Source: a virus (taxonomy: Duplodnaviria > Caudoviricetes). Taken from it: a DNA stretch of 64,000 nucleotides. Shown here in pieces: positions 15,773 through 26,949 of this stretch. Both the position numbers and the translations under genes were made by a program. The notes beneath the pieces are model-generated. The model saw only the letters and a program-made list of their open reading frames with translations, was not told the origin of the DNA and did not search any database. Location: IMG/VR virus record IMGVR_UViG_3300031994_000022; one strand, given 5' to 3'. Each line of letters starts with the position of its first letter. Within the stretch, counting starts at the first letter, position 1.

Positions 15773-18700
15773 TTAATATCTATTCTTTTTTAAAGTATTA
15801 TTACCCATTGCTTGACCTATAGTAATCTCTTGCCAGAATTTCTCAAGCTCTTTGTCTTGTTTCATTTCACGCTTGAAATCATTGTAGTTCTCAACATTAG
15901 GTAATTCGATTGTAATGTTATTGTTCGAAGTCACATTCCTTACATTACTAGAGCCGACATTTGGTACGGCAAGTCCAACAGTAGTAGGAATATTTCCTTT
16001 CGCAATTTCCCACAATCTTTGTGACATATCATGGGTAAAGACCATATCTCCACGATTGAGTGGTGTAAGCATAGCACCATCAGATGTACGATAGATAAGC
16101 TCGGATGCATTTTCCTGAGTCCATGCAAGCTGGTCACGAGGTGAAGCTTTAGTACCCTTAGCATAACCAAGCCAGTCACCATTTGAACCAAAGGTATATG
16201 ACTTGCCTCCGATGGTTTGCTTTCCGGTCACCATATATCCTTCGCTGTCAAAGTAGTACCAATCACCATCAATCTTTAACCACTCATTTTTTGGATATGA
16301 ACCATCGGAATATTCCCACCAATAGCCTTTGTCGTTATGTTTCCAAGAACCATCCCAACTTGAATCCCAATAACCTTCGCTGTTGAGCCAGTATCCATCA
16401 ACATATTCATTTGCGGCATATGAACCATTTCCGTATTGATACCAATTACCTCTATCATCTTTCTGCCATGAACCTTTATGGAAAAGTTCTTGGACATCAT
16501 CTTTTATAGACGCACCACCAGTTTTCTTATCGGTACCATTACTAGGTGTATCAGAACCATCAGAAGATTTGGGTTTATTATTCTCTGAATTGGTAAGGGT
16601 TATCATACCATCAGCTATTGTTTTAACATCAACTGACATATGTTCGACAATACCTTTAACACCATTCGTAGCAGGGTCGGTAACCTTCTCCATTGATTTT
16701 CTAAAATCATCAATGATACTTCCTACATTTCCAATCTTATCTCCAAGACTTTCAAAATGCTCAGTTGATTTAATATCATAATCATTTTTAACTTCTTGCA
16801 GTCCTTTAGTAATAGCTTCTCCATTCTTTTGGATATAAGGCTGCATATTATTCATAACTGCAATAATACTTTCAGTTTGATCATTAAGATATTCTTCAAC
16901 GCCAGATTTCATATCATCAAGCATCTGATTGGTTTCGGAAATATATCTGTCCCATTCAGTTTCTTCGAGTTGTTGCTGTGCATCATTTAATTGCTTTTGA
17001 AGTTCCTGACGCTTCTTACGAGTTTCCTCAGAATCATCGCCTTGATAAGCGGCAAGTTGCTTTTCGAGGTCACTGATAGATTTTGTTTGATTGGCAATAT
17101 TTTTTTGGAAATCATATAAATCCTTTTCGGTATTTAATGATTCTTTAAACTTGTCTATAAGTTCACCAAGAGATTCAATGTATTTACTAATACCTTCTCT
17201 TACAAGACTCTGCATAGCTTCCATAGCTTCTTTTTCGGCATTTGCGGTATCACGCATAGCTTGAGCTATCTTTTCTTGTTCTTCAATAATATTTTTATTA
17301 TTTGGATCATTTGCTAATTGATTGCTTACTATGGTATATTGTTTTTGATAACGCTTTAAACGCTCGGTAGCATCAGTGTATTGAGCACTGATCAGACCAG
17401 CTTGTGCAAATCCACGGTTATTTAAAAAGCCTTTATCATTATAATTATTCTCGCTTTGCAGAAGTCCGATTAACCAATCAGCTTCATTAGCTATATCCGA
17501 AAGTCTTTCTTCTAACCAATCAAACTTATCCCACTGTAACTGCATAATTGTATTATTCAGTTTAACAAGTTCAGTGTTAGATTCTTCGTAAGCTTTGTTG
17601 ACATCCTGTACTTGCTGATACATGTCATTCCAAGCTTCAGTACCTTCTTGGATTTTTCCATTGACAACAGCGTCATTGAATCTTTTCACAGCTTCATCAA
17701 GTTCTTCAGCATATTTTTTATTCTGATCTTTTTCATATTCAACAAGTTTGTCATAATATGATTGATCTACGAAATAACCATGTTCCTCAGTACGTGCAAT
17801 ACGCTCATTAATGATGTCAGCTTGCTTCTCAATGTTAGTAATTTGACCTTCATATTCGGCAATAATATTTTCAAGCAGTTGCTTATATTGATCTTTAACA
17901 GCTATCTGGAGATCCTTAACCGCATCACCAGCAGCAACAGATTTATTGTAGAGTTCTTGATAATTTTGAATGGCTTCGACAAGATACTTATTAGCAATCT
18001 TCTCGATGTCGTTACCACTCATTAAACCTTCACGAACCTTACGCTGATAGTCGCCTGTTGCCCATGCAGCTACAGCTTTATTGTATTGTTCTAAGTCATA
18101 TGCATATTGCTTAGATGATTTAGCCGTTGTCTCGTCATCGCCGTAATCTTCCCAGTTTAATTCCTTACCGTCATTAACGGCAACTTTTTTAGCGTTGCGG
18201 AGATACTCTTCTTGGGCAGTAGTCTGAGCTTTAATTTCTTGATTAAGTTGCTTAATCTTTTCGCCAATCTTTTCGTTACGTTTCGCCCAATTCTCATAAA
18301 CATCGTTGATAACTTTGTCAAGTCGGTCAATCTCTTCCTCGATACGTTGGATGGCAACTTCAATCCAATCAAATGTCTCATCGGTATCCTCAGAAGCTTT
18401 GTCGTTGTTGGTGGAGTCTCCACCACCACCGTTATCTCCTCCACCTCCGGAAGATTTAGATGAACCACCGCCACCATATTTACCAGTAGCACCAGTTTGT
18501 GTTCCGTTCCATTTATATTTAATCCCTTTAAGTGTTTTTACATCAACAGCACTAATATTTACTCTTGCATCTGATGGTGCGCCGTTAAAACCTTGCGTTG
18601 TTTCTCCAACTCTAACTGTATCCCATTCATAATCTGCCGTTATTGCACCACCAGTTATTTCGGAAATCCATGCTTTAAACTGAGCCATAGTGCCTGAAAA

Positions 18701-21700
18701 CTGAGATTGTAGACTGGCAAGAGTAGCAAGAAATGGTGCACTATTAAGATAAGCTCCAACTTCAAAATCAGACGAATCTAATTCTGCAATTTGTTGAGCT
18801 AATAAGTTAGCATCAGACCAAAATGCATCGTCATATAATTCAGCATTAAATAATATTTTTTTACTAGCCTCAACACGTAATTTTCCGATAGCCTCAATAT
18901 CTCCTTCTATGGCATCTTCAATTAGTTCGGCATTTTTAATAATAAAATCAGCATCAATTTCTGGACTAAGCTCTGGGATAGCTTTCCCTTCCTCATTATA
19001 AACAGCAATAAGATTCTGAACCTTATCAGTCATTTTTGTTATTATTTCAGAATCGCTATCTTTTGCAGCTACAGCTTTATCAAACGCTGTTTTGTTTTGT
19101 GTGACATATTTAGATAATTCTTTAAGGGCAGTTGCATGTGCTTTATAACGTTTTGTTAATCTTGATTCAACTACTTCTTGAGCATTAGTTATACCTTGTT
19201 CTTTAAGTTGCTGAATATAATATTCCTTTTCGGCATCAGTAACATGATCCAAATCATCTATAAGTGTATCTAATACACCACTTTGATCTACATATGCAGT
19301 TGCAAGTTGGTTTGTTGCAGTTTGAGCAGCGTCAGCATCACCAGCATTTTCTACAAGAGCATCATTGTATTGCTCAATAGCAGAAGAGAGGAGATTGACA
19401 TCTTGGTCAGCACCAGCATCAAATGTTGTACCACCAAATGCACTATTAACAGCCTCAATCTCAGTAGCAGTTGCTTTACCACCTTCAACTTTAGTTTTAT
19501 TGTATGCTGTCGCCAAATCATCACCAAATGCATCATCCATAGCTTTGAGATCTGCAACACCTTTAGAAGATTTGGTTTCGATTTCGACATCAACAGTGAT
19601 AGGACTCATACGTTTAGATAATTCTTCTTTCAAAGCATCATAATCTAAACTCTCTGTATCTGGTTCTAATTCTATTCCTAATGCTATTTGTCTTTCTTCA
19701 GGTGTTAATTCTTCCAAATACTTATCCGACCAATTATCACCCATAATCTCTTTAAGATGCTCATATTGTTCATCAAGATTTTCTATACCTGGTTCTAATG
19801 GATGTGATTTTACATAATTAGTCAATGTTTCATAAGACGATTGTGCATCTTGAGTACTCTGTTGAAAATCTTTGCCCATAGAATCATAGTCTTTTGCTAA
19901 ATTCCATGCACCAAATTTACCAGAGAAATGCATAAGATAACCAGCATCTACGGCACCAATACCTTCGTTACCAGTAACTTCGTCAACACCAGCTATAAGC
20001 CCTTTACCGTATTCTTCTCCATATTTTTTACCATCGGCACTATCAATTTTTAATATTTCATCAATAGATATTTCACCATCTTCAGCAGCTTTTGCTATTA
20101 CCGAATCAATGTAATTATATACTTCATTTTTTCCTAAAAATACAGCACCATCTTCCGTCTGTAAAATAGGTGTGAAGGCAATTGTGTGTTCAGTCTCATC
20201 CCATTCAAACGTACTACTGCCACCAAAAACAGTATCAATCGTACCAACTTCAGGATTATAATTATCCCAAGACGCCAACTCTTTTTCATATGTTTTCTTC
20301 AACTCGTCAGACCATTCGATAATGGTTCGTTTATCCATATCGACATTGCCAAACTTATGAAGCACACCACTATCAATATCATTTTCAAATTGAAGATAAT
20401 CTTTTCCAGCTTCTTTGCCCCAATCTGATAGTTTTTGACGTTCACGATCTACTTCGGATTCTTCTGCTTGTATCTTATGAATATTTCCCTCGGAATCATA
20501 ATAAGTGCCACCAATTTCAGGTATATTTTCTGGATTATATTTATCATTTATTCCCTTTAAGGTAGAATCATATATTGCTCTTTTATAATTTAATATGGCA
20601 TTTAACGTATCATCGTCAATTCCTTGTTCTTCTAATTTTGCAAAGAATTCCTCATTCATTGATTTTAACTTATTAAAATCAAATTCTTCCATGTTATACA
20701 TATCTTCAACAACTTTATTGAATTCTCCAGCAAAATCATAATCAAGGCTTTCGTCATTACTCCAATCAGTTAACAACTGGTTAAAATTATTTGGATCAAT
20801 CATAGATTGAAGATTATTTATATACCCAACATATTCTTCATAAATATCTTCATATCCAGCTATAATATTACCTTCTGAATCTTGAAAAGAAGCTAATACT
20901 TCATATAATGTATTAATATATTCAGTGATTTCAACAGTATTTTTATCAACAACTTCTTTCCATTTTAATTGATCTTTTTCGTTACCTTCTCTAATTGCGT
21001 TGACATACTGATTGTATCCTTGTTGTGTATAGTCATTTTGATAATACTCAGCCCAATCTTTATAACTAGCATTAGTTTCTTCATTCGCAACCACCTTGCC
21101 ATTATCTTCAAGACTATATGTTTTGCCCGTATAACCAGTATTCAGAACATCCTTAGCATTAATAGCAGCACTTTCACGTTGAAGTTTAATATTTGTTTCT
21201 AAGATACGCTGTTGAGATTCTAACAAGGATTTGGTTCTTGCCAACCTATCTATGTCTCCTTGATCTGATAATGTCAAAGTTCCCTTGGCTTGAATGGATG
21301 CTATATCATCATCAATCTTTTTAATCTGAGAATTTAAACTACTTAATTCACTTTCAGAAGATTGTAATTCACTCACGGATTTATCAAGTTTTTCAGTAGC
21401 TTTTGAAATAGCCTCCAATTCTTTTTCTTTTTGAGCTTTGCCAGTAAGTTCATCCCAAAGTTCTTTAGCTTTGTCAATAATCCAACTTACAGCCGCCATT
21501 ATAGCCGCTGAAGTCAAGGCATTAACAATAGATTTACCCACACTTTTAAAAGCGTTGCCAAGTTTAGTAGTCTTATTAGATGTTTCATCCATTATTGAGT
21601 TAATGCCTTTAACAGCAGCTTGACCAGTTTCACCAGTTTTTTGTAATTCAGTTTTTAATTCTTGTAACTTGGTTTTAACATTGTCTGTTAAGTTAACCGA

Positions 21701-21856
21701 GTTCTCTAAATCCATACCTAAGAATTTTGCCGTTGGATCTGAAGAATTTAATTGTATATAATCTAAAACATTATTATATTGATTAATATCTTTTTTATTA
21801 TTGGCATGTTGATACATCGCACCAATCAATGTACCAGAATCGTTTGTATTAAATAG
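15773..21856 (-). CDS. Tape measure protein, exon 2 (C-terminal cell-wall-binding repeats)
   Basis: Long helical protein ending in GYAKGT...AWTQE...E.I. The apparent ATG at 21859-21857 supplies the intron's terminal G. Joins in frame to exon 1 (..KKLG|LFNT..), giving ~3364 aa. Confidence 0.85.
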   Translation of the reverse strand, partial: LFNTNDSGTLIGAMYQHANNKKDINQYNNVLDYIQLNSSDPTAKFLGMDLENSVNLTDNVKTKLQELKTELQKTGETGQAAVKGINSIMDETSNKTTKLGNAFKSVGKSIVNALTSAAIMAAVSWIIDKAKELWDELTGKAQKEKELEAISKATEKLDKSVSELQSSESELSSLNSQIKKIDDDIASIQAKGTLTLSDQGDIDRLARTKSLLESQQRILETNIKLQRESAAINAKDVLNTGYTGKTYSLEDNGKVVANEETNASYKDWAEYYQNDYTQQGYNQYVNAIREGNEKDQLKWKEVVDKNTVEITEYINTLYEVLASFQDSEGNIIAGYEDIYEEYVGYINNLQSMIDPNNFNQLLTDWSNDESLDYDFAGEFNKVVEDMYNMEEFDFNKLKSMNEEFFAKLEEQGIDDDTLNAILNYKRAIYDSTLKGINDKYNPENIPEIGGTYYDSEGNIHKIQAEESEVDRERQKLSDWGKEAGKDYLQFENDIDSGVLHKFGNVDMDKRTIIEWSDELKKTYEKELASWDNYNPEVGTIDTVFGGSSTFEWDETEHTIAFTPILQTEDGAVFLGKNEVYNYIDSVIAKAAEDGEISIDEILKIDSADGKKYGEEYGKGLIAGVDEVTGNEGIGAVDAGYLMHFSGKFGAWNLAKDYDSMGKDFQQSTQDAQSSYETLTNYVKSHPLEPGIENLDEQYEHLKEIMGDNWSDKYLEELTPEERQIALGIELEPDTESLDYDALKEELSKRMSPITVDVEIETKSSKGVADLKAMDDAFGDDLATAYNKTKVEGGKATATEIEAVNSAFGGTTFDAGADQDVNLLSSAIEQYNDALVENAGDADAAQTATNQLATAYVDQSGVLDTLIDDLDHVTDAEKEYYIQQLKEQGITNAQEVVESRLTKRYKAHATALKELSKYVTQNKTAFDKAVAAKDSDSEIITKMTDKVQNLIAVYNEEGKAIPELSPEIDADFIIKNAELIEDAIEGDIEAIGKLRVEASKKILFNAELYDDAFWSDANLLAQQIAELDSSDFEVGAYLNSAPFLATLASLQSQFSGTMAQFKAWISEITGGAITADYEWDTVRVGETTQGFNGAPSDARVNISAVDVKTLKGIKYKWNGTQTGATGKYGGGGSSKSSGGGGDNGGGGDSTNNDKASEDTDETFDWIEVAIQRIEEEIDRLDKVINDVYENWAKRNEKIGEKIKQLNQEIKAQTTAQEEYLRNAKKVAVNDGKELNWEDYGDDETTAKSSKQYAYDLEQYNKAVAAWATGDYQRKVREGLMSGNDIEKIANKYLVEAIQNYQELYNKSVAAGDAVKDLQIAVKDQYKQLLENIIAEYEGQITNIEKQADIINERIARTEEHGYFVDQSYYDKLVEYEKDQNKKYAEELDEAVKRFNDAVVNGKIQEGTEAWNDMYQQVQDVNKAYEESNTELVKLNNTIMQLQWDKFDWLEERLSDIANEADWLIGLLQSENNYNDKGFLNNRGFAQAGLISAQYTDATERLKRYQKQYTIVSNQLANDPNNKNIIEEQEKIAQAMRDTANAEKEAMEAMQSLVREGISKYIESLGELIDKFKESLNTEKDLYDFQKNIANQTKSISDLEKQLAAYQGDDSEETRKKRQELQKQLNDAQQQLEETEWDRYISETNQMLDDMKSGVEEYLNDQTESIIAVMNNMQPYIQKNGEAITKGLQEVKNDYDIKSTEHFESLGDKIGNVGSIIDDFRKSMEKVTDPATNGVKGIVEHMSVDVKTIADGMITLTNSENNKPKSSDGSDTPSNGTDKKTGGASIKDDVQELFHKGSWQKDDRGNWYQYGNGSYAANEYVDGYWLNSEGYWDSSWDGSWKHNDKGYWWEYSDGSYPKNEWLKIDGDWYYFDSEGYMVTGKQTIGGKSYTFGSNGDWLGYAKGTKASPRDQLAWTQENASELIYRTSDGAMLTPLNRGDMVFTHDMSQRLWEIAKGNIPTTVGLAVPNVGSSNVRNVTSNNNITIELPNVENYNDFKREMKQDKELEKFWQEITIGQAMGNNTLKKNRY

Positions 21857-21872
21857 CATATTAATATATAAT
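21844..21872 (+). promoter_or_regulatory. sigma-A-type promoter for the intron-borne antisense gene
   Basis: TTGTAT(21844-49)-N17-TATAAT(21867-72); AAGGAG RBS at 21895-21900; ATG at 21909. Confidence 0.65.
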
Positions 21873-22938
21873 ATCTTTGTGAAACATTATATATAAGGAG
21901 AGTACATTATGGGGATATTAAGATATTGTCAACATTGTATGGGAATAAATAAAACTAGTAAAGAAGAAACTGATCCGAGAAATGGTTTTACAGTAACATT
22001 AGTTTATTATACGTTTTATCATGGCTTTGTAGCCAATGATATGGTAACAACATGCCCAATGTGTCAAGGCGAATTAACAAAAATGAACCTAACCACAGAA
22101 GAGTGGAAGTATACAACTAATGTATCACTTGACCAAGATTTCATTTTTGCAATGGACAAATTAAAACAAGATGATATAATCGAATTTAATATAAAAATTG
22201 CAAAATTTAAAGAAACTTATGATACCGTTGAACTTGCTCGTGTTCAAGCTAGATCTACAAGTTCGTCATCTACCCAATCCACCAACATCCCCAAATGCCC
22301 AACGTGTGGCAGTACCGACATCAAGAAAATATCCGGTACAAAGAGATGGTTGGGTACAGGATTGTTTGGTCTTGCTTCATCCGATTTAGGAAAGACTATG
22401 CAGTGCAACTCGTGTGGATATAAGTTTTAAATATTTCTACTCATGCGCACAAACCGCTAGTAGAAGAGTAGTAGCACTACTAGCCGGAGCTTTTTCATAG
22501 GCTTCTCAAACCTATGTCTTGGACTCTACCTTCATGCCTTTCGACACGCCCACTTGAGAGCCTCTGGGGGCGACACTTATTAACTGTTCAAAAATTGCTA
22601 AATTTGAACAGTTAAAAAAAATAATAATTATTTAAGTGTTCAAAATTTGCCAAATTTGAATAGTTACCAGTACGTCTCCCTGCTGATTGGATTATTGGGT
22701 AGGATATAACGGTGTACCGTTATACTTGAGAACCAATAACCTTTCCAGTCCTTGTGCGAGCCTCACGGACATCGCAGAGTGCGGAGCTACCCACACCCAT
22801 ATCAGTGGTACGAGAGCCAATAAAACCCTCGTTTGATTTTACTTGTGTATCCTACGCCAATAATGGCGGTCTTTGTGTTTTACCCACGGTTATTTAGCCG
22901 TGGCACGGGAATACACCTGAGCCTACTTAATTACTTTA
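21857..22938 (-). mobile_element. Group I intron (1082 nt) in the tape measure gene
   Basis: P1: exon CUGGGU pairs with IGS GCUCAG, with a U.G pair at the splice site. P10: exon-2 CUAUUUAAU pairs with AUUAAGUAG. P3 GCUCGC/GUGGGC; Q AAUCAGCAGG; R CCAGAGGCUC; S AAGGUAGAGUCC (P7 GGCUC/GAGUC); P8 GUGUC-GAAA-GGCAU; terminal G at 21857. Confidence 0.9.
21909..22430 (+). CDS. Zinc-ribbon protein encoded antisense inside the intron
   Basis: Four CxxC pairs (CQHC, CPMC, CPTC, CNSC); Gly-rich hydrophobic WLGTGLFGLAS segment; own promoter and RBS; no homing-endonuclease motif recognised. Confidence 0.8.
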   Translation: MGILRYCQHCMGINKTSKEETDPRNGFTVTLVYYTFYHGFVANDMVTTCPMCQGELTKMNLTTEEWKYTTNVSLDQDFIFAMDKLKQDDIIEFNIKIAKFKETYDTVELARVQARSTSSSSTQSTNIPKCPTCGSTDIKKISGTKRWLGTGLFGLASSDLGKTMQCNSCGYKF

Positions 22939-25900
22939 ACCCAGCTTTTTGGTACCTATGACAGTACCAATACCTATAATGGCAGTTTTAAATAAACCAA
23001 TCTTATTAACAATAGCATCTAATATCTCGATAAATTTAGTTCCAGTATCAATTAAACCTTTAAGAAAATCGGAATTAATTGCATCATTTATTAATTCTTC
23101 AAGAGCTGCTTTTGCTCTATTTATGGAATATTCAAGACCTTGCTCAAAATTCTCTTGCTCACGCATAGCACTACCAGCACTATTCTCAGCAGTTTCGTAT
23201 GCAGATTCTAGAGTGTCAATATTGTCAAGAATGGCGAAAAGCGTATTCGCATTTCTTTTTCCAGCTAGTGCCTCTCCAAGAGATGCACGTTCTATATCAT
23301 CAAGATTCTTCCATTCTTTTCCAATACCTATAAGAATATCATATATAGATTTATATGTTTTTTGATCAGCTTCAAGAATATCAAAACCAGTAAGTGATTT
23401 AACTAAACCTTGGAGTTTAGAAGTTGTTTCGGTAAACTCATCTGCTTCTTCTCCAAGCTCCTCGAGATCCGTTTTAGATCCACGAATACGAGCCGAGAGA
23501 GTTTTGAATGTAGTACCTACAGATTCAGGATTCTGAACTACAGTATTTGCAGCAGTTACTAATGCCACAGATTGTTCTAAAGAAGTGTTAGCGGCATTAA
23601 GAGACGCAGCTGAACGCTGTAATGCCTCACCAATACCAGCGGTATCTATTGCATAATTATTTGCCACTTCATTAAATACATCCACAATATGTTCCGCTTC
23701 ATCAGCTTGCATCTGATAACCTTGTAAGGTTGATATAAGTGATTGATTAGCGGCATCAATATCTATACCATCACCAACATTTTTGTAAAGAAGTGCAACA
23801 CGAGCAAGTTCTTTGGCATCAGGTACATTGTATCCAAGACGTGCCCAATCAGCTGTTGCACTGATTGTGTCGGTTATAGTTGAACCTAAATCTTTAGCTG
23901 TATCAGCATACGATTGAAAATCGCCTTTAATCTGTTCAAGACTTTGTTCAGATACTTTAGCAAGTTCAACCATTTGAACGTTAAGATCTTGTATGGTTGT
24001 AAATGCTTGGCGAGCATAACGAATTATGTCTTGGAAACTAAAGTATTGAGCAAAGAACTTTGCATTCATATCAGATAAACGATGAGAGAATTGACTTAAA
24101 AATCCCCCTCCTTTTACATCATCACCTAATTCTTTAAATCGAGCATCAACCTTAAGTAATTCCGTGATAAGATCGTTTAATTCACTTTGAGGTTTAGAGG
24201 TATCAAAATTTTGAAACAAATTTTGTAATTTTAAATAGTCTTGATATACATCAGTTGCTTTAAAAGCACGTTTAGTATTTTTACTTAATACATCATTTAT
24301 CTTTGCTAAATTCTTCTGAATTGAATTCTCATTAGCTAACTTATTTTCAGCGAGAGTAGCTTCTTGAGTTAATTGTTTTAACCGATTTTTTGCCTCAGCT
24401 AACTCTTGCAATTCTTTTTCTGAAACAATATTAATGGTATCTGAATCACCTTGAATACGAGCCAATGTCGATCTTAATTCATCAATCTCACTAGAAAACT
24501 CAGGGATATATTTTCTCTTTTTCTCTAGTGTATCAAGTGAATTCATTGCATTATCAATATCTGAGATATATTTATTTAACGCTTTTTGATTTTGTAAATC
24601 TTTTAAATTTAATGCATCTTTAAGAGCCGCAGCACTAGTTGCTACACCTCTAGTAATTCGCTCATTTTCTTCCTCAGTAAAATTAAGTTTCTTAAGTTCG
24701 GTTATCTCATCATCAATCTTAGCGATTTCTTCATCTCTAACTGAATTATCGCCATTTTTTATTTTTTTGATCTCAAGTTTATTACGTTCATTAACCAACT
24801 TAATGTATCGGCTTATACTTTTTTCTCGCTCTTTATCTGAATCTGCATCGTCTGATTTTTTTGTCTTTGTTTTATTTTCAGATTTATTTAATTCTTCGTT
24901 GGCTTCAGCTACGGACTCTTTCGCTTTGGCAGTCTGTTTAGCCGATTCAGTAACGTTATCTAATGACGATGATTCACTATTCAACGATGCCTCTGTTGGC
25001 TCGGTTGACGCTGCTAATTCTTCGTTGGCTTCTTTTACAGACTTCTTAGCTTCAGCCGTTTGTTTTGCTGATTCTGTTACATTATCTAAATCCGTTTGAC
25101 TTATATGGGTTTCTATAGGTTTCTTATTTTTTACTTTAACATTTACGCTATTTTTACTATTTGTATCAATAGGATTATTGTTAATAATCTGTACTTGTGT
25201 AGTTATTTCTTTAAACTTTTCAATAACTGAATCTAACAATCCAGATATCTTTTCTAAAGATTCTCCAAATAAATCTTTTTTAGAAATATCAGATATTAAA
25301 TCTCTAATATCTGAAAGATATTGTACTATTTCTGTTAAATCTACTTTTTCGTCATCTAAATTAATAATTTCATCAGTGTCTTTTAATCCAGATTTTTCAC
25401 GCAGTTTGCTTCTAAAATAAGAATCATCTGGTGTAGGTAGGTTGATATTTGACAAGTCTAAACCAAACTCATCAAACCCCATAGCTTGTTTTAGAATTTT
25501 AAAAAAGTCCATATATCTATATATTTGACTTTCGGCTGATTCTAATTGTGAAACGTTAGATGAACCAAAAGTTTCATATAATTGATCTATACCACCTTTA
25601 AAATCTACAACATTATTAATATATGCAAATAATTTTTCTTCGCTTCCGGCTTGACCCACAACTTTTGAATATGCGTTCTTATATCTAGACATTGTAGATC
25701 TTAAATAATCTTTAGTCGCAGCTTCTCGTTCTTGAGCAATTCTATCTACTCCTTGATTGATTTGAACATTATAAACTCCAGTTCCGACTTTTTGATTTAC
25801 TTCATCGAGTTTACCTAATAAAATATCCACACTAGATATAATATTGGTAAAACCATTTTCATCATCGACAGAGCCTAACGTATTTCTTATATCTAGCAAA

Positions 25901-26949
25901 TGTTTAGATATTTGTTCTAAAACATCAATCAACGGTTTAAGACTCTCATCATTTACCGAACTTTTTAATGTGTCTCCTAATAATTCGGCATTTTCACTCG
26001 CCTCTTTTGCTTCGGTTGATATTTCTGACGTAGCATCATTTGCTTTTTTTATTTGATCGGGGGAGATGTATACTTTATCTTGTAATCTTCCAAAGGAGTC
26101 TTCAATATCTTTTACTTCAAATCCCATTTCAGACATGAGTTGAATTAAATCAAATACTTTTTGTTGAAATACACCCCAACTTTCTTCATCAAAACTAAGA
26201 AATTCTCCATCTTTTGCAGAACTACTCATTTCATCCATAGCAGATTTCAAATCAGCCATCATTCTGTCTCTAGTAGCACGATACTCTTCACGTTTTTGTC
26301 GTTCCGCTTCTCTTACAGCATCCGCCGTCCTTTTTGCTTCTTCTCGTTGCTGTTTCAATAAATCAGATTGCTGCTTTACATAATTCTCATTAGCATCATA
26401 TGTAATATCTGACATATGACTATTTAATTGTTGATTCGCTTTATTTGTAAAATTATCATAATACTCTTTTAAATAATCTTGTTTAAAAACATCAGAATTA
26501 TTAAAAATACTGTCAAATATATTTTTATAAATAGACGAAATTTCTTGACCGAATTTATTTGAATAAGTTTCCAAAAATGCGTAAAATTTTAAAAAGTATT
26601 TTTCGCCCTTACTTATTGATTCAGATGATATCTTTGAAATATCAAAAGATTCGATAAACTTTTCAATATCCACGCCAGAATTTAAAGCTTCTTTTTTTAT
26701 AGAGTCAATATCTTTTTTTACAGTTTTGGTATTCCATAATTCCAAATCTGTTCTTTTAGTATTTCTAGCTTCATCCCATAATTCATTTATTGATTTTTTT
26801 AATTTCTTTACTTCCGAATCATCGGCTTTGGGAGTTAATTTCGTTTGATTAATTTTATTTTGAGTGTCTAAAACCGATTCGAGTCTAGACACTAATCCAT
26901 CTAAAGCGGAGGTATCAACACCACCACTACCAGTTACACCTTTAGGCAT
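22939..26949 (-). CDS. Tape measure protein, exon 1 (TP901-type core)
   Basis: TP901-family core (ATADWARLGY...IVDVFNEVANNYAI...VGTTFKTLSARIRG). The ORF-track stop TAA is the first three nt of the intron. Confidence 0.9.

What the first reader, a model, noticed from the sequence alone, without database searches (positions are those of the whole stretch)
21857..22938. Group I intron in the tape-measure gene carrying an antisense, non-endonuclease cargo gene
Seen: the two TMP ORFs (1337 and 2028 aa) are exons. P1 (CUGGGU/GCUCAG), a 9-bp P10 (CUAUUUAAU/AUUAAGUAG), P3, P4, P7 (variant GGCUC/GAGUC), P8 and P9 are all present. Splicing gives in-frame ...GTKKLG|LFNT... (~3364 aa). Between P9.1 and the terminal G sits a 173-aa four-CxxC protein on the OPPOSITE strand with its own sigma-A promoter and RBS. 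Established: ORFs in group I introns are normally same-strand homing endonucleases. Inference: the ribozyme acts as a neutral landing pad that hides a lysogen-expressed moron inside an essential gene. One candidate function is superinfection exclusion acting on TMP-mediated injection, genetically locked to its cognate TMP allele.
Basis: partly seen in the sequence, partly recalled or inferred. Interest (0 to 1): 0.86.

Follow-up and report, generated by a model that had tools for sequence, protein, structure and literature searches.

The report
Atypical intron carrying antisense gene
A giant phage tail tape-measure gene is split by a self-splicing-type (group I) intron that standard RNA models miss, and the intron's tail end houses an independently expressed backwards-facing zinc-ribbon gene of unknown function, while related introns also carry defence and toxin-antitoxin genes.

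Summary
Window 21857-22938 (minus strand) lies between two tape-measure (TMP) ORFs and has group I intron topology. P1 has a U·G at the 5' splice site, P10 is 9 bp, the last base is G, and P3/P7 form a pseudoknot. I found 11 homologous elements at the same TMP site. On a 12-sequence alignment 91% of cells pair (slid controls 32-42%) and 52 of 82 pairs change on both sides. Joined exons are in frame in every locus, and uninterrupted TMP alleles exist. Rfam RF00028 does not hit this family. It does hit a second, canonical intron in a relative's TMP in the same search mode. Two hairpins between P3 and P4 are atypical.

The antisense 173-aa four-CxxC ORF is real. It has an RBS and a conserved TTG-17-TATAAT promoter-like site. 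It belongs to an unnamed family of at least 375 clusters, with no nuclease motif and no fold match. It abuts the 3' splice site in 10 of 11 related introns. It also occurs outside introns, in a defence island and a prophage lysogeny region.

Related introns additionally carry NsnA/GmrSD_N-like, DUF3800, MazEF and other genes. The "landing pad for morons" idea is therefore partly supported. The proposed function and lysogenic expression are untested.

The parts
22939..26949 (-). TMP exon 1 (1337 codons), ending ...GTKKLG
   Evidence: ORF. Pfam PhageMin_Tail 7e-25 and phrog_4211 2e-60. Its last 300 aa align to internal regions of many uninterrupted TMPs of 2000-6000 aa.
21857..22938 (-). Group I-type intron, 1082 nt
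   Evidence: Bounded by P1 and P10. The last base is G. Exons join in frame. The structure is supported by covariation in 12 homologs.
22437..22938 (-). Ribozyme part, P1 to P9.x. G+C is 41-49% against about 25-35% in the flanks
   Evidence: Composition. Conserved, covarying alignment A3.
22917..22944 (-). P1 and internal guide: CUGGGU (22944-22939) pairs with GCUCAG (22922-22917). AUUAAGUAG (22931-22923) is the P10 half.
   Evidence: helix 1: 100% paired, U·G at the splice site in 10/10, and the distal pair is C-G in 7 and U-A in 3. P10 partners co-vary in L104, L224, L217 and L226.
22845..22916 (-). P2 domain: an outer stem with a bulge enclosing two hairpins
   Evidence: helices 2-4: 7, 4 and 4 pairs changed on both sides.
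22804..22808 (-). P3 5' strand, CCACU
   Evidence: Pairs with AGUGG at 22554-22550. The forms CCUCU/AGAGG, UCACU/AGUGA and UCCUU/AGGGA occur in relatives (helix 6: 100% paired).
22755..22798 (-). Two extra hairpins, H1 and H2, between P3 and P4. H2 is capped by a GNRA loop. This is atypical for group I.
   Evidence: helices 7 and 8: 96% and 100% paired, 4 pairs each changed on both sides. Clade B has only one such hairpin.
22683..22748 (-). P4 (CUGG/UCAG) enclosing P5, with A-rich J4/5 and J5/4
   Evidence: P4 is invariant, so there is no covariation to support it. It was assigned by analogy with the RF00028 consensus AAU-UGCGGG-AAA ... AAUC-CGCAG shown. P5 co-varies (helix 10).
22568..22680 (-). 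P6 (GGGAGAC/GUCGCCC with an A·G) closing a variable extension. In the window the extension holds two AT-rich palindromic modules.
   Evidence: helix 11: 100% paired, 3 pairs changed on both sides. The modules at 22586-22609 and 22638-22661 are unique in the window.
22521..22564 (-). P7 (G-A-GGCUC / GAGUCC with a bulged A), P3 3' strand, P8 and J8/7 (GAAGGUA)
   Evidence: helix 12: 100% paired. The forms GGUCA/UGAUC, GACUA/UAGUC and GGCUU/AAGUC occur in relatives. The G-C next to the bulge is invariant in 12/12.
22437..22516 (-). P9 hairpin and P9.x region
   Evidence: P9 co-varies within clade A (helix 15). I did not resolve the structure of P9.x.
21909..22430 (+). Antisense 173-aa protein with two zinc ribbons (4 x CxxC)
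   Evidence: ORF. It has 375 homolog clusters. The eight Cys are invariant in 33 sequences. It is the largest + strand ORF free of overlap in a window that is 85% covered by minus-strand ORFs.
21844..21902 (+). Promoter-like site and RBS of the antisense gene: TTGTAT (21844-21849, inside exon 2), 17-nt spacer, TATAAT (21867-21872), AAGGAGAG (21895-21902)
   Evidence: Read. A TTGnnn hexamer, a 17-nt spacer and a TATAAT-like hexamer (TATAAT, TAAAAT or TAGAAT) precede the homologous gene in 7 of 8 loci. L217 has TTTACT-16-TATAAT. The site is not listed by the consensus scan.
15773..21856 (-). TMP exon 2 (2027 codons plus stop), starting LFNTNDSG...
   Evidence: ORF. The ATG at 21859-21857 belongs to the intron. 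Choline-binding repeats lie near the C-terminus. Its homolog P0002 sits in the same arrangement.

Best explanation
The stretch is a functional but atypical group I intron that interrupts one 3364-codon tape-measure gene.

How the intron works (mechanism inferred from the group I family):
- The ribozyme folds from the late TMP transcript.
- It pairs its internal guide with both exon ends, forming P1 and P10.
- Splicing is started by guanosine and finished at the terminal G, which restores ...KKLG|LFNT....

The antisense gene:
- The stretch between P9.x and the 3' splice site does not take part in the fold. It serves as a cargo bay.
- In the window the bay holds one autonomous gene on the opposite strand, a two-zinc-ribbon protein with its own promoter-like site and RBS.
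- This gene is therefore transcribed independently of, and against, the late operon.
- I read it as a moron-type accessory cassette. Most likely it is a nucleic-acid-binding or sensor-type protein involved in phage-phage or phage-host conflict. I do not read it as the intron's homing enzyme or a splicing factor.
- Relatives load further genes (defence-type, toxin-antitoxin, DNA-binding) into the same bay, on either strand.

What is shown: the RNA topology with covariation, exon continuity, conservation of the site, the variable cargo, and the cassette's occurrence outside introns.

What is inferred: catalysis, timing of expression, and the protein's function.
For: Intron:
- P1, P10 and the terminal G are present and the junction is in frame.
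- 11 homologous elements sit at the same ...K-L-G| codon of TMP genes that are only 33-77% identical.
- On the 12-row alignment 91% of cells pair, against 77.5% in shuffles (0/500) and 32-42% in slid controls. 52 of 82 pairs change on both sides, including the P3/P7 pseudoknot, P6 and P2.
- P10 co-varies with the exon 2 start: AAUCAAGUAG/CUAUUUGAU in L104, 11 perfect pairs in L224, UGUGUAAG/CUUGCACA in L217, UGCGAG/CUCGCA in L226.
- Exon 2 of L226 and of L217 has no start codon at the boundary, yet both are open in frame with exon 1.
- Uninterrupted alleles exist. P0125 reads ...AKNLN-LFGYKNNDG... and then matches the exon 2 start of L097.

Cargo:
- No endonuclease family is found in Pfam, PHROGs, NCBIfam or PADLOC.
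- Invariant residues are the eight Cys plus a few Ser, Pro, Leu and Ile. No His, Asp, Glu or Asn is invariant or nearly invariant.
- Homologs lie outside introns, next to McrBC and in a prophage lysogeny region.
- The intron copy P0115 and the non-intron copy P0062 share a 100% identical C-terminal 90 aa. The 131-aa ORF downstream of each is 98% identical.
- The bay also holds an NsnA/GmrSD_N-like gene (PADLOC 2e-40) and DUF3800 in L217, PemK/MazE in L224, a 525-aa NUMOD1/HTH ORF in L001 and a membrane-anchored ORF in L091.
Against:
- Rfam RF00028 gives no hit even at E <= 10 on short stretches. A canonical intron in the TMP of L077 scores 57.9 bits in that mode.
- The two hairpins between P3 and P4 have no precedent that I can name.
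- P4 is invariant, so covariation does not support it.
- The zinc-ribbon gene abuts the 3' splice site in 10 of 11 related introns across both clades (33-56% identity). Disposable cargo would be expected to come and go more often, which leaves room for a role tied to the intron.
- The promoter's -35 is weak, and promoter-like hits in the region are no more frequent than in shuffles.
- No clear terminator follows the gene in the window.
- The function is unknown: there is no fold match.
Confidence: 0.6

Rival explanations
1. The zinc-ribbon protein is the intron's own mobility or maintenance factor. It would be a new kind of homing endonuclease, or a DNA-targeting subunit that recruits a host nuclease, encoded antisense.
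For: - It is the one constant passenger. It sits directly at the 3' splice site in 10 of 11 related introns, in both ribozyme clades.
- Zinc ribbons are common DNA-binding modules in HNH-type enzymes. That is from my own knowledge and the abstract of PMC3592412.
- The C-terminal ribbon is rich in conserved Lys and Arg.
Against: - No HNH, GIY-YIG, LAGLIDADG, PD-(D/E)xK or other nuclease domain is found.
- No acidic, His or Asn residue is invariant or nearly invariant.
- No structural match to a nuclease was found.
- The same cassette occurs away from any intron, and was exchanged recently between intron and non-intron sites.
- L091 has the intron without it.
Confidence: 0.12
2. The antisense unit is mainly regulatory. 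Transcription from its promoter runs against the late operon through the ribozyme, or the protein binds the intron's DNA or RNA. Either would damp TMP expression or splicing, for example by keeping tail genes silent in a lysogen.
For: - The promoter-like site straddles the 3' splice site, and its position is conserved.
- No convincing terminator separates the gene from the antisense ribozyme in the window.
- Two AT-rich palindromic, operator-like modules sit in the P6 extension and nowhere else in the window.
Against: - Relatives L104, L225 and L001 have a GC-rich hairpin with a T-run right after the gene. That would stop antisense read-through (by eye).
- The protein family also occurs where there is no intron or TMP to regulate.
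- The palindromic modules are absent from many family members.
Confidence: 0.12
3. There is no splicing. The phage makes two separate tape-measure-like proteins, and the structured RNA between the genes has another role.
For: - Exon 1 ends at a stop codon and exon 2 of the window starts with ATG.
- Rfam does not recognise an intron.
- There is no transcript evidence.
Against: - There is no Shine-Dalgarno sequence before the exon 2 ATG.
- Exon 2 of L226 and of L217 lacks any start codon at the boundary.
- Uninterrupted alleles read straight through the site.
- P1 and P10 pair with both exon ends and co-vary with them.
- The P3/P7 pseudoknot core co-varies.
Confidence: 0.05

Closest known systems
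Group I introns in tape-measure genes of Bacillus cereus-group prophages (TMP-IVS1 to IVS3; Tourasse and Kolsto 2008, PMC2504315)
   Same: These are self-splicing-type introns inserted at conserved positions of a prophage TMP gene. Related introns occur at homologous sites in different phages, and the internal guide is adapted to the site.
   Different: - No DNA similarity to any phage record was found.
- The present family is missed by RF00028 and has extra hairpins between P3 and P4.
- It carries a conserved antisense non-nuclease gene and, in relatives, defence or TA genes.
- I read only the passages of that paper returned.
Canonical phage group I introns with a same-strand HNH, GIY-YIG or similar homing endonuclease (T4 td/nrdB/sunY, SPO1, Twort). 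One example sits in this very gene family at L077:3918-4309.
   Same: P1-P10 architecture, the P3/P7 pseudoknot, the terminal G, and an ORF placed in a peripheral region so that the core can still fold.
   Different: - The canonical intron in L077 scores 57.9 bits with RF00028 and carries a same-strand ORF with CxxC and His motifs of HNH type.
- The window's intron scores nothing.
- Its ORF is antisense, has its own promoter-like site and lacks nuclease motifs.
Cyanobacterial tRNA-Leu (IC3-type) group I introns
   Same: By eye, the J6/7-P7-J7/3 and J8/7-P7' strings (CAGA-GGCUC-UCA..., GAAGGUA-GAGUCC-AA) resemble the CAGAGACUC ... AAGAGAGAGUCCAA of these introns, including the bulged A in P7. 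This is recalled from memory and was not tested.
   Different: The window's intron has a large P2 domain, hairpins between P3 and P4, a long P6 extension and a 3' cargo region. IC3 introns are small and carry no ORF.
Phage morons (Juhala et al. 2000 concept: an autonomous promoter-gene-terminator unit inserted in a late operon)
   Same: A single gene with its own promoter-like site and RBS lies inside the late structural gene array. It is absent from some relatives, and related copies lie in prophage lysogeny regions and defence islands.
   Different: It is nested inside an intron inside an essential gene, not between genes. No terminator is evident in the window. Expression in a lysogen is not shown.
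IStrons of Clostridioides difficile (a group I intron fused to an IS605-type element)
   Same: A group I ribozyme whose 3' part carries non-endonuclease genes, so that insertion into a coding gene is tolerated through splicing.
   Different: IStron cargo is a transposase module on the same strand, and it mobilises the element. No transposase is present here, and the insertion site is one fixed TMP codon.

Membership tests
Group I intron | P1 helix between the 5' exon end and an internal guide sequence, with a U·G wobble at the splice site | tested here: met
   CUGGGU/GCUCAG. U·G in 10/10 sequences with a 5' end. The distal pair is C-G in 7 and U-A in 3 (helix 1).
Group I intron | P10 between the guide sequence and the start of the 3' exon | tested here: met
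   9 bp in the window. The partners change together in L104, L224, L217 and L226.
Group I intron | The last intron nucleotide is G (omega-G) | tested here: met
   ...AUG|...UUG|...CAG| and ...UCG| in all 8 loci listed.
Group I intron | Core of P3-P9 with a P3/P7 pseudoknot and a P4-P6 domain | tested here: met
   P3, P5, P6, P7, P8 and P9 co-vary. P4 is invariant and was assigned by analogy. Two extra hairpins between P3 and P4 are atypical.
Group I intron | Guanosine-binding G-C pair in P7 next to a bulged nucleotide | tested here: met
   G-C at columns 463/517 is invariant in 12/12, and a bulged A or C precedes it. Its function as the G site is inferred.
Group I intron | Match to the curated covariance model Rfam RF00028 | tested here: not met
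   No hit at E <= 10 on 561-, 1801- and 1455-nt stretches. The control intron in L077 scores 57.9 bits in the same mode.
Group I intron | Self-splicing with guanosine and Mg2+, and a spliced junction in vivo | not testable with these tools
Homing endonuclease (LAGLIDADG, GIY-YIG, HNH, His-Cys box, PD-(D/E)xK, EDxHD) | A recognisable catalytic domain or motif in the intron ORF | tested here: not met
   Pfam, PHROGs, NCBIfam and PADLOC give only sub-threshold zinc-ribbon hits. No catalytic-type residue is invariant or nearly invariant.
Homing endonuclease (LAGLIDADG, GIY-YIG, HNH, His-Cys box, PD-(D/E)xK, EDxHD) | Nuclease fold | tested here: inconclusive
   AF2 model, pLDDT 77. Foldseek against PDB gives no hit at E <= 0.001. 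VIA-align gives best Z 3.7. Only a family member is found in BFVD.
Phage moron | Own promoter and translation signals, independent of the surrounding operon | tested here: inconclusive
   A TTGnnn-17-TATAAT-like site and a strong RBS are conserved in position in 7 of 8 loci. The -35 is weak, and the scan finds no excess over shuffles.
Phage moron | Own terminator | tested here: inconclusive
   None is detected in the window. A GC hairpin with a T-run follows the gene in L104, L225 and L001 (by eye).
Phage moron | Present or absent among otherwise related phages, and found in other genomic contexts | tested here: met
   Absent from L091. Present in a defence island and a lysogeny region. Recent exchange is shown.
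Phage moron | Expressed from the prophage and beneficial to the lysogen | not testable with these tools
   No expression data. The lifestyle of the window's phage was not determined.
Known anti-phage defence systems (PADLOC) | HMM match of the zinc-ribbon protein | tested here: not met
   No family matched the window's protein or P0115. P0018 gave only a weak PbeC hit, E 0.0013.

The most novel reading that the evidence does not exclude
A family of Rfam-invisible group I introns sits at one fixed codon of giant tape-measure genes in phages and prophages that appear to infect gut Bacillota. The host range rests on one Lachnospiraceae genome. These introns work as a protected cargo platform. Their 3' bay accumulates independently expressed conflict genes: the conserved antisense zinc-ribbon gene plus swappable defence and toxin-antitoxin modules. 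Splicing hides the load inside an essential structural gene, so the cargo cannot be lost without precise intron deletion. On this reading the zinc-ribbon protein would be a new anti-phage or superinfection-exclusion factor.
Probability: 0.35. Interest if true: 0.85.

Novelty: new variant of a known kind. Interest (0 to 1): 0.68.

Why it matters
- Group I introns in phage structural genes are usually seen as selfish elements that carry at most their own homing enzyme.
- Here one intron family repeatedly carries other genes, in either orientation, at a fixed site in an essential gene. These include a conserved antisense gene of a large uncharacterised family, a defence-type nuclease relative, DUF3800 and a MazEF pair.
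- If confirmed, this adds self-splicing introns to the list of places where phages store accessory and defence genes.
- It would explain how an insertion of 1-4 kb in a tape-measure gene is tolerated.
- It gives a handle on a zinc-ribbon family of at least 375 clusters with no known function.
- It shows that the standard covariance model misses a whole group I lineage, and that fast-filter scans can miss even canonical introns.

Tried and rejected
- Rfam, gathering mode on the window and on 10 related loci: nothing. That scan also missed the canonical L077 intron that scores 57.9 bits in a focused search. Gathering-mode negatives here are therefore weak.
- Rfam, E-value mode on the intron: only chance-level hits such as miRNA families and rteR.
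- blastn of 2 kb around the intron against 50,697 phage records: no match.
- Viral-contig scans with five patterns: only one true relative, L002. The 63 hits to GAAGGTAGAGTCCAA and the 35 hits to GCAGGGAGACGTANTG were chance (the hits were not screened further).
- Most of the 117 metagenome and genome hits to the 18-mer were chance, in high-GC DNA. They were filtered by a second motif.
So I had no expression data and no lifestyle call.
- Alternative P4 pairings were rejected. CUGC/GCAG is broken in L109, L217 and L224. CUGAU/AUCAG is not kept in clade B.
- I considered whether the 3' strand of H2 is the true P3. There is no consistent pairing with the P3' region.
- I considered whether the antisense of P9.1 acts as a terminator for the cargo gene. 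It is not listed by the scan, and the MFE fold does not form it.
- Fold searches of the cargo model found only generic zinc ribbons and helical hairpins (PDB Foldseek, VIA-align wide, BFVD). The Atlas look-up gave only unnamed clusters.
- No covariance model was built, because the alignment exceeds 400 columns.
Full report
**What is at the coordinates.** Nearly all genes of the 64-kb window lie on the minus strand. ORFs of at least 120 aa on that strand cover 85% of it. Two adjacent minus-strand ORFs are tape-measure-like:
- 22936-26949 (1337 aa; PhageMin_Tail 7e-25; phrog_4211 2e-60);
- 15773-21859 (2028 aa; choline-binding repeats near the C-terminus).

Exon 1 ends ...GGT at 22939 and runs straight into TAA. 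The second ORF's ATG occupies 21859-21857 and has no Shine-Dalgarno sequence before it. The 1082 nt between (21857-22938) consist of two parts. One is a stretch of about 500 nt with raised G+C (41-49% against 25-35% around it). The other is a 173-aa ORF on the + strand (21909-22430).

**Relatives.** The phage collection has no similar DNA. A protein search with the start of exon 2 found one relative, on a 21-kb Logan contig (L001). L001 has the same layout. The exon 1 end ...CTGGGT is followed by a conserved structured stretch, then a homolog of the antisense ORF (49% identity), then ATG|CTATTTAAT and an exon 2 homolog.

An 18-mer shared by both, combined with a second motif, then recovered seven more elements from viral, metagenome and genome collections. 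Look-ups of homologs of the antisense protein gave three more (L217, L224, L225). L226 extends L172 and lies in a Lachnospiraceae genome.

All elements whose 5' end is held sit after the same ...K-(K/S/R/Q/N)-L-G codon of a TMP gene. The TMP exons themselves are only 33-77% identical. Two ribozyme clades are visible. The larger clade A comprises the window, L001, L104, L109, L224, L225, L091 and L097, with L217 more distant. The compact clade B comprises L002, L077 and L172.

**Is it a group I intron?** I derived a structure by hand and tested it on MAFFT alignment A3, which has 12 rows. The results were:
- 91% of 807 cells form standard pairs. Shuffles give 77.5% (0 of 500 reach the observed value). 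Sliding the 3' partners by 1-3 columns gives 32-42%.
- 52 of 82 pairs show changes on both sides.
- P3 is CCACU/AGUGG, with CCUCU/AGAGG, UCACU/AGUGA and UCCUU/AGGGA in relatives.
- P7 is GGCUC/GAGUC, with GGUCA/UGAUC, GACUA/UAGUC and GGCUU/AAGUC in relatives.
- P3 and P7 cross, which gives the pseudoknot typical of group I.
- P6 is GGGAGAC/GUCGCCC and changes to GAGAGGC/GCCGCUC and GGGAAGC/GCUGCCC.
- P7 has a bulged nucleotide next to an invariant G-C pair. J8/7 reads GAAGGUA.
- P1 keeps U·G at the splice site in 10/10 sequences.
- P10 co-varies with the first codons of exon 2.
- The intron ends in G in all eight loci listed.

Against membership, Rfam RF00028 gives no hit at E <= 10 on short stretches of the window or of L002. 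This is a real difference and not a failure of the tool. The TMP of L077 has a second interruption, which L172 lacks. That interruption scores 57.9 bits (E 4e-14) in the same mode and carries a same-strand HNH-like ORF.

The likely reason for the miss is architecture. One hairpin (clade B) or two hairpins (clade A; H2 has a GNRA loop) lie between P3 and P4, where group I introns normally have a 3-nt junction. Both hairpins co-vary (helices 7 and 8). There are also a large P2 domain and a variable P6 extension. P4 (CUGG/UCAG) is invariant, so I assigned it only by analogy with the model consensus shown.

**Are the two ORFs one gene?** Yes, on four grounds:
- Joined exons are in frame in every locus.
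- In L226 and L217 the intron ends ...UCG| and ...CAG|, with no start codon at the boundary. The exon 2 frame is nevertheless open, for more than 520 codons in L226.
- The last 300 aa of exon 1 match thousands of TMPs. In many long ones the matching region is internal and the protein reads on.
- P0125 is 83% identical over that region. It continues ...GAKNLN-LFGYKNNDG..., and its next residues match the exon 2 start of L097 (E 6e-9).

**The antisense gene.** It has an RBS (AAGGAGAG, 7 nt before the ATG) and TTGTAT-17 nt-TATAAT, with the -35 lying inside exon 2. A TTGnnn hexamer, a 17-nt spacer and a TATAAT-like hexamer precede the homologous gene in 7 of 8 loci. L217 has TTTACT-16-TATAAT. The consensus scanner does not list the site, since its -35 matches at 3 of 6 positions. 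Promoter-like hits in the region are no commoner than in shuffles.

The protein family has 375 clusters at E <= 0.001, none with a name. An alignment of 33 members shows three parts:
- an N-terminal zinc ribbon with a highly variable insert;
- a conserved helical segment (...FIxAMDKLKQxDxIEFxLKMSQFK);
- a strongly conserved basic C-terminal zinc ribbon (PKCPTCGSTNIKKISGTKRW..GLFGLASS..GK.M.C..CGYKW).

The invariant residues are the eight Cys and a few Ser, Pro, Leu and Ile. No typical catalytic residue is invariant or nearly invariant. Pfam, PHROGs, NCBIfam and PADLOC give nothing above threshold. An AlphaFold model (pLDDT 77) has no significant match in the PDB or by VIA-align, and matches only a family member in BFVD.

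**Cargo or partner?** The gene is the element nearest the 3' splice site, always antisense, in 10 of the 11 related introns. Only L091 lacks it. That argues against a random passenger. But it also occurs where there is no intron:
- between UvrD/DUF3644 and McrBC genes (L220);
- in a prophage lysogeny region near CI-like, PIN and integrase genes (L222).

The intron copy P0115 and the non-intron copy P0062 share a 100% identical C-terminal 90 aa. The 131-aa ORF downstream of each is 98% identical, while their N-terminal domains differ. L001 keeps a remnant of a window-type 3' end (...CNSCGYKF*) beside the ribozyme. This is followed by an inserted 525-aa NUMOD1/HTH ORF and then a different allele of the gene. 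The gene therefore behaves as an exchangeable cassette.

The space between ribozyme and cassette is used for other genes:

| Locus | Extra genes in the bay |
|---|---|
| L217 | NsnA/GmrSD_N-like (PADLOC 2e-40; Pfam 2e-14) and DUF3800 |
| L224 | PemK/MazE |
| L091 | membrane-anchored 149-aa ORF |
| L172, L077 | several unknown ORFs |

Intron length ranges from about 1.0 to 4.3 kb.

**Reading.** The best-supported picture is an atypical group I intron whose 3' region is a cargo bay. In the window the bay holds a single autonomous antisense gene of the moron type. The specific proposals have no support yet: exclusion acting on TMP-mediated injection, a lock to the cognate TMP allele, and lysogenic expression. 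The lifestyle of the window's phage was not determined. L172 lies in a Lachnospiraceae genome contig. L217 lies on a 308-kb scaffold, and L222 and L223 lie near integrase genes.

Three rivals remain. The protein may be a new mobility factor. The antisense unit may be regulatory. There may be no splicing at all. I rate these at 0.12, 0.12 and 0.05.

**Novelty.** Group I introns in TMP genes are known (PMC2504315). Five full-text searches found no description of an antisense non-endonuclease gene conserved in a phage group I intron, or of defence or TA genes inside one. That library is incomplete, so this is not proof of absence. I class the finding as a new variant of a known kind.

Noticed in passing
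L077:3918-4309 (minus); also L002:1-300: The TMP of clade-B relatives L077 and L002 has a second, canonical group I intron about 100 codons upstream (RF00028 57.9 bits). It carries a same-strand ORF with HNH-like CxxC and His motifs. L172 lacks it, so L172 is an intron-less allele for that site.
   Followed up: partly
window 22586-22609 and 22638-22661: Two copies of an AT-rich palindromic module (GTTCAAATTTnnCnAnTTTTnAAC) form the P6 extension and occur nowhere else in the window (0.01 expected by chance). The same module is in L109, L091 and L097. It could be an operator-like protein site or just a peripheral hairpin.
   Followed up: partly
L001:831-872 and L001:885-2462: A remnant of a window-type zinc-ribbon gene end (...CNSCGYKF*) lies next to the ribozyme. 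It is followed by an inserted 525-aa ORF with NUMOD1 and several HTH motifs (weak Cbp1-like hit) and then a different full-length allele. This is a footprint of cassette replacement. The 525-aa ORF may be a DNA-binding remnant of a homing enzyme.
   Followed up: partly
L217:6001-9616; L222:6001-6894: A 4.3-kb version of the intron carries NsnA/GmrSD_N-like and DUF3800 genes on the TMP strand. The zinc-ribbon gene is paired with a 131-aa ORF, and the same pair (98-100% identical) sits in a prophage lysogeny region elsewhere.
   Followed up: partly
L104, L225 and L001, just after the zinc-ribbon stop codon (for example L001:806-830): A GC-rich hairpin, GCCCCACG-AAAA-CGTGAGGC, is flanked by A and T runs. 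It looks like a terminator on both strands, so inside the intron it would also face the TMP transcript. It is absent from the window.
   Followed up: no
window 15773-21856 (exon 2, residues about 1837-1932): The C-terminal part of the TMP carries choline-binding repeats and matches an endolysin PHROG (phrog_7854, 5e-16). This suggests a cell-wall-binding or lytic module at the end of a 3364-aa tape measure.
   Followed up: no
L224:8120-12504: TMPs of this lineage are extremely long. Exon 1 alone is 3685 aa in L224, and uninterrupted relatives reach 6157 aa. This implies very long tails or non-ruler domains.
   Followed up: no
(tool behaviour): The gathering-mode Rfam scan of 84 kb missed an Intron_gpI match that scores 57.9 bits (cut-off 50) when the 551-nt stretch is searched alone. 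Negative gathering-mode scans for group I introns should therefore not be trusted.
   Followed up: yes
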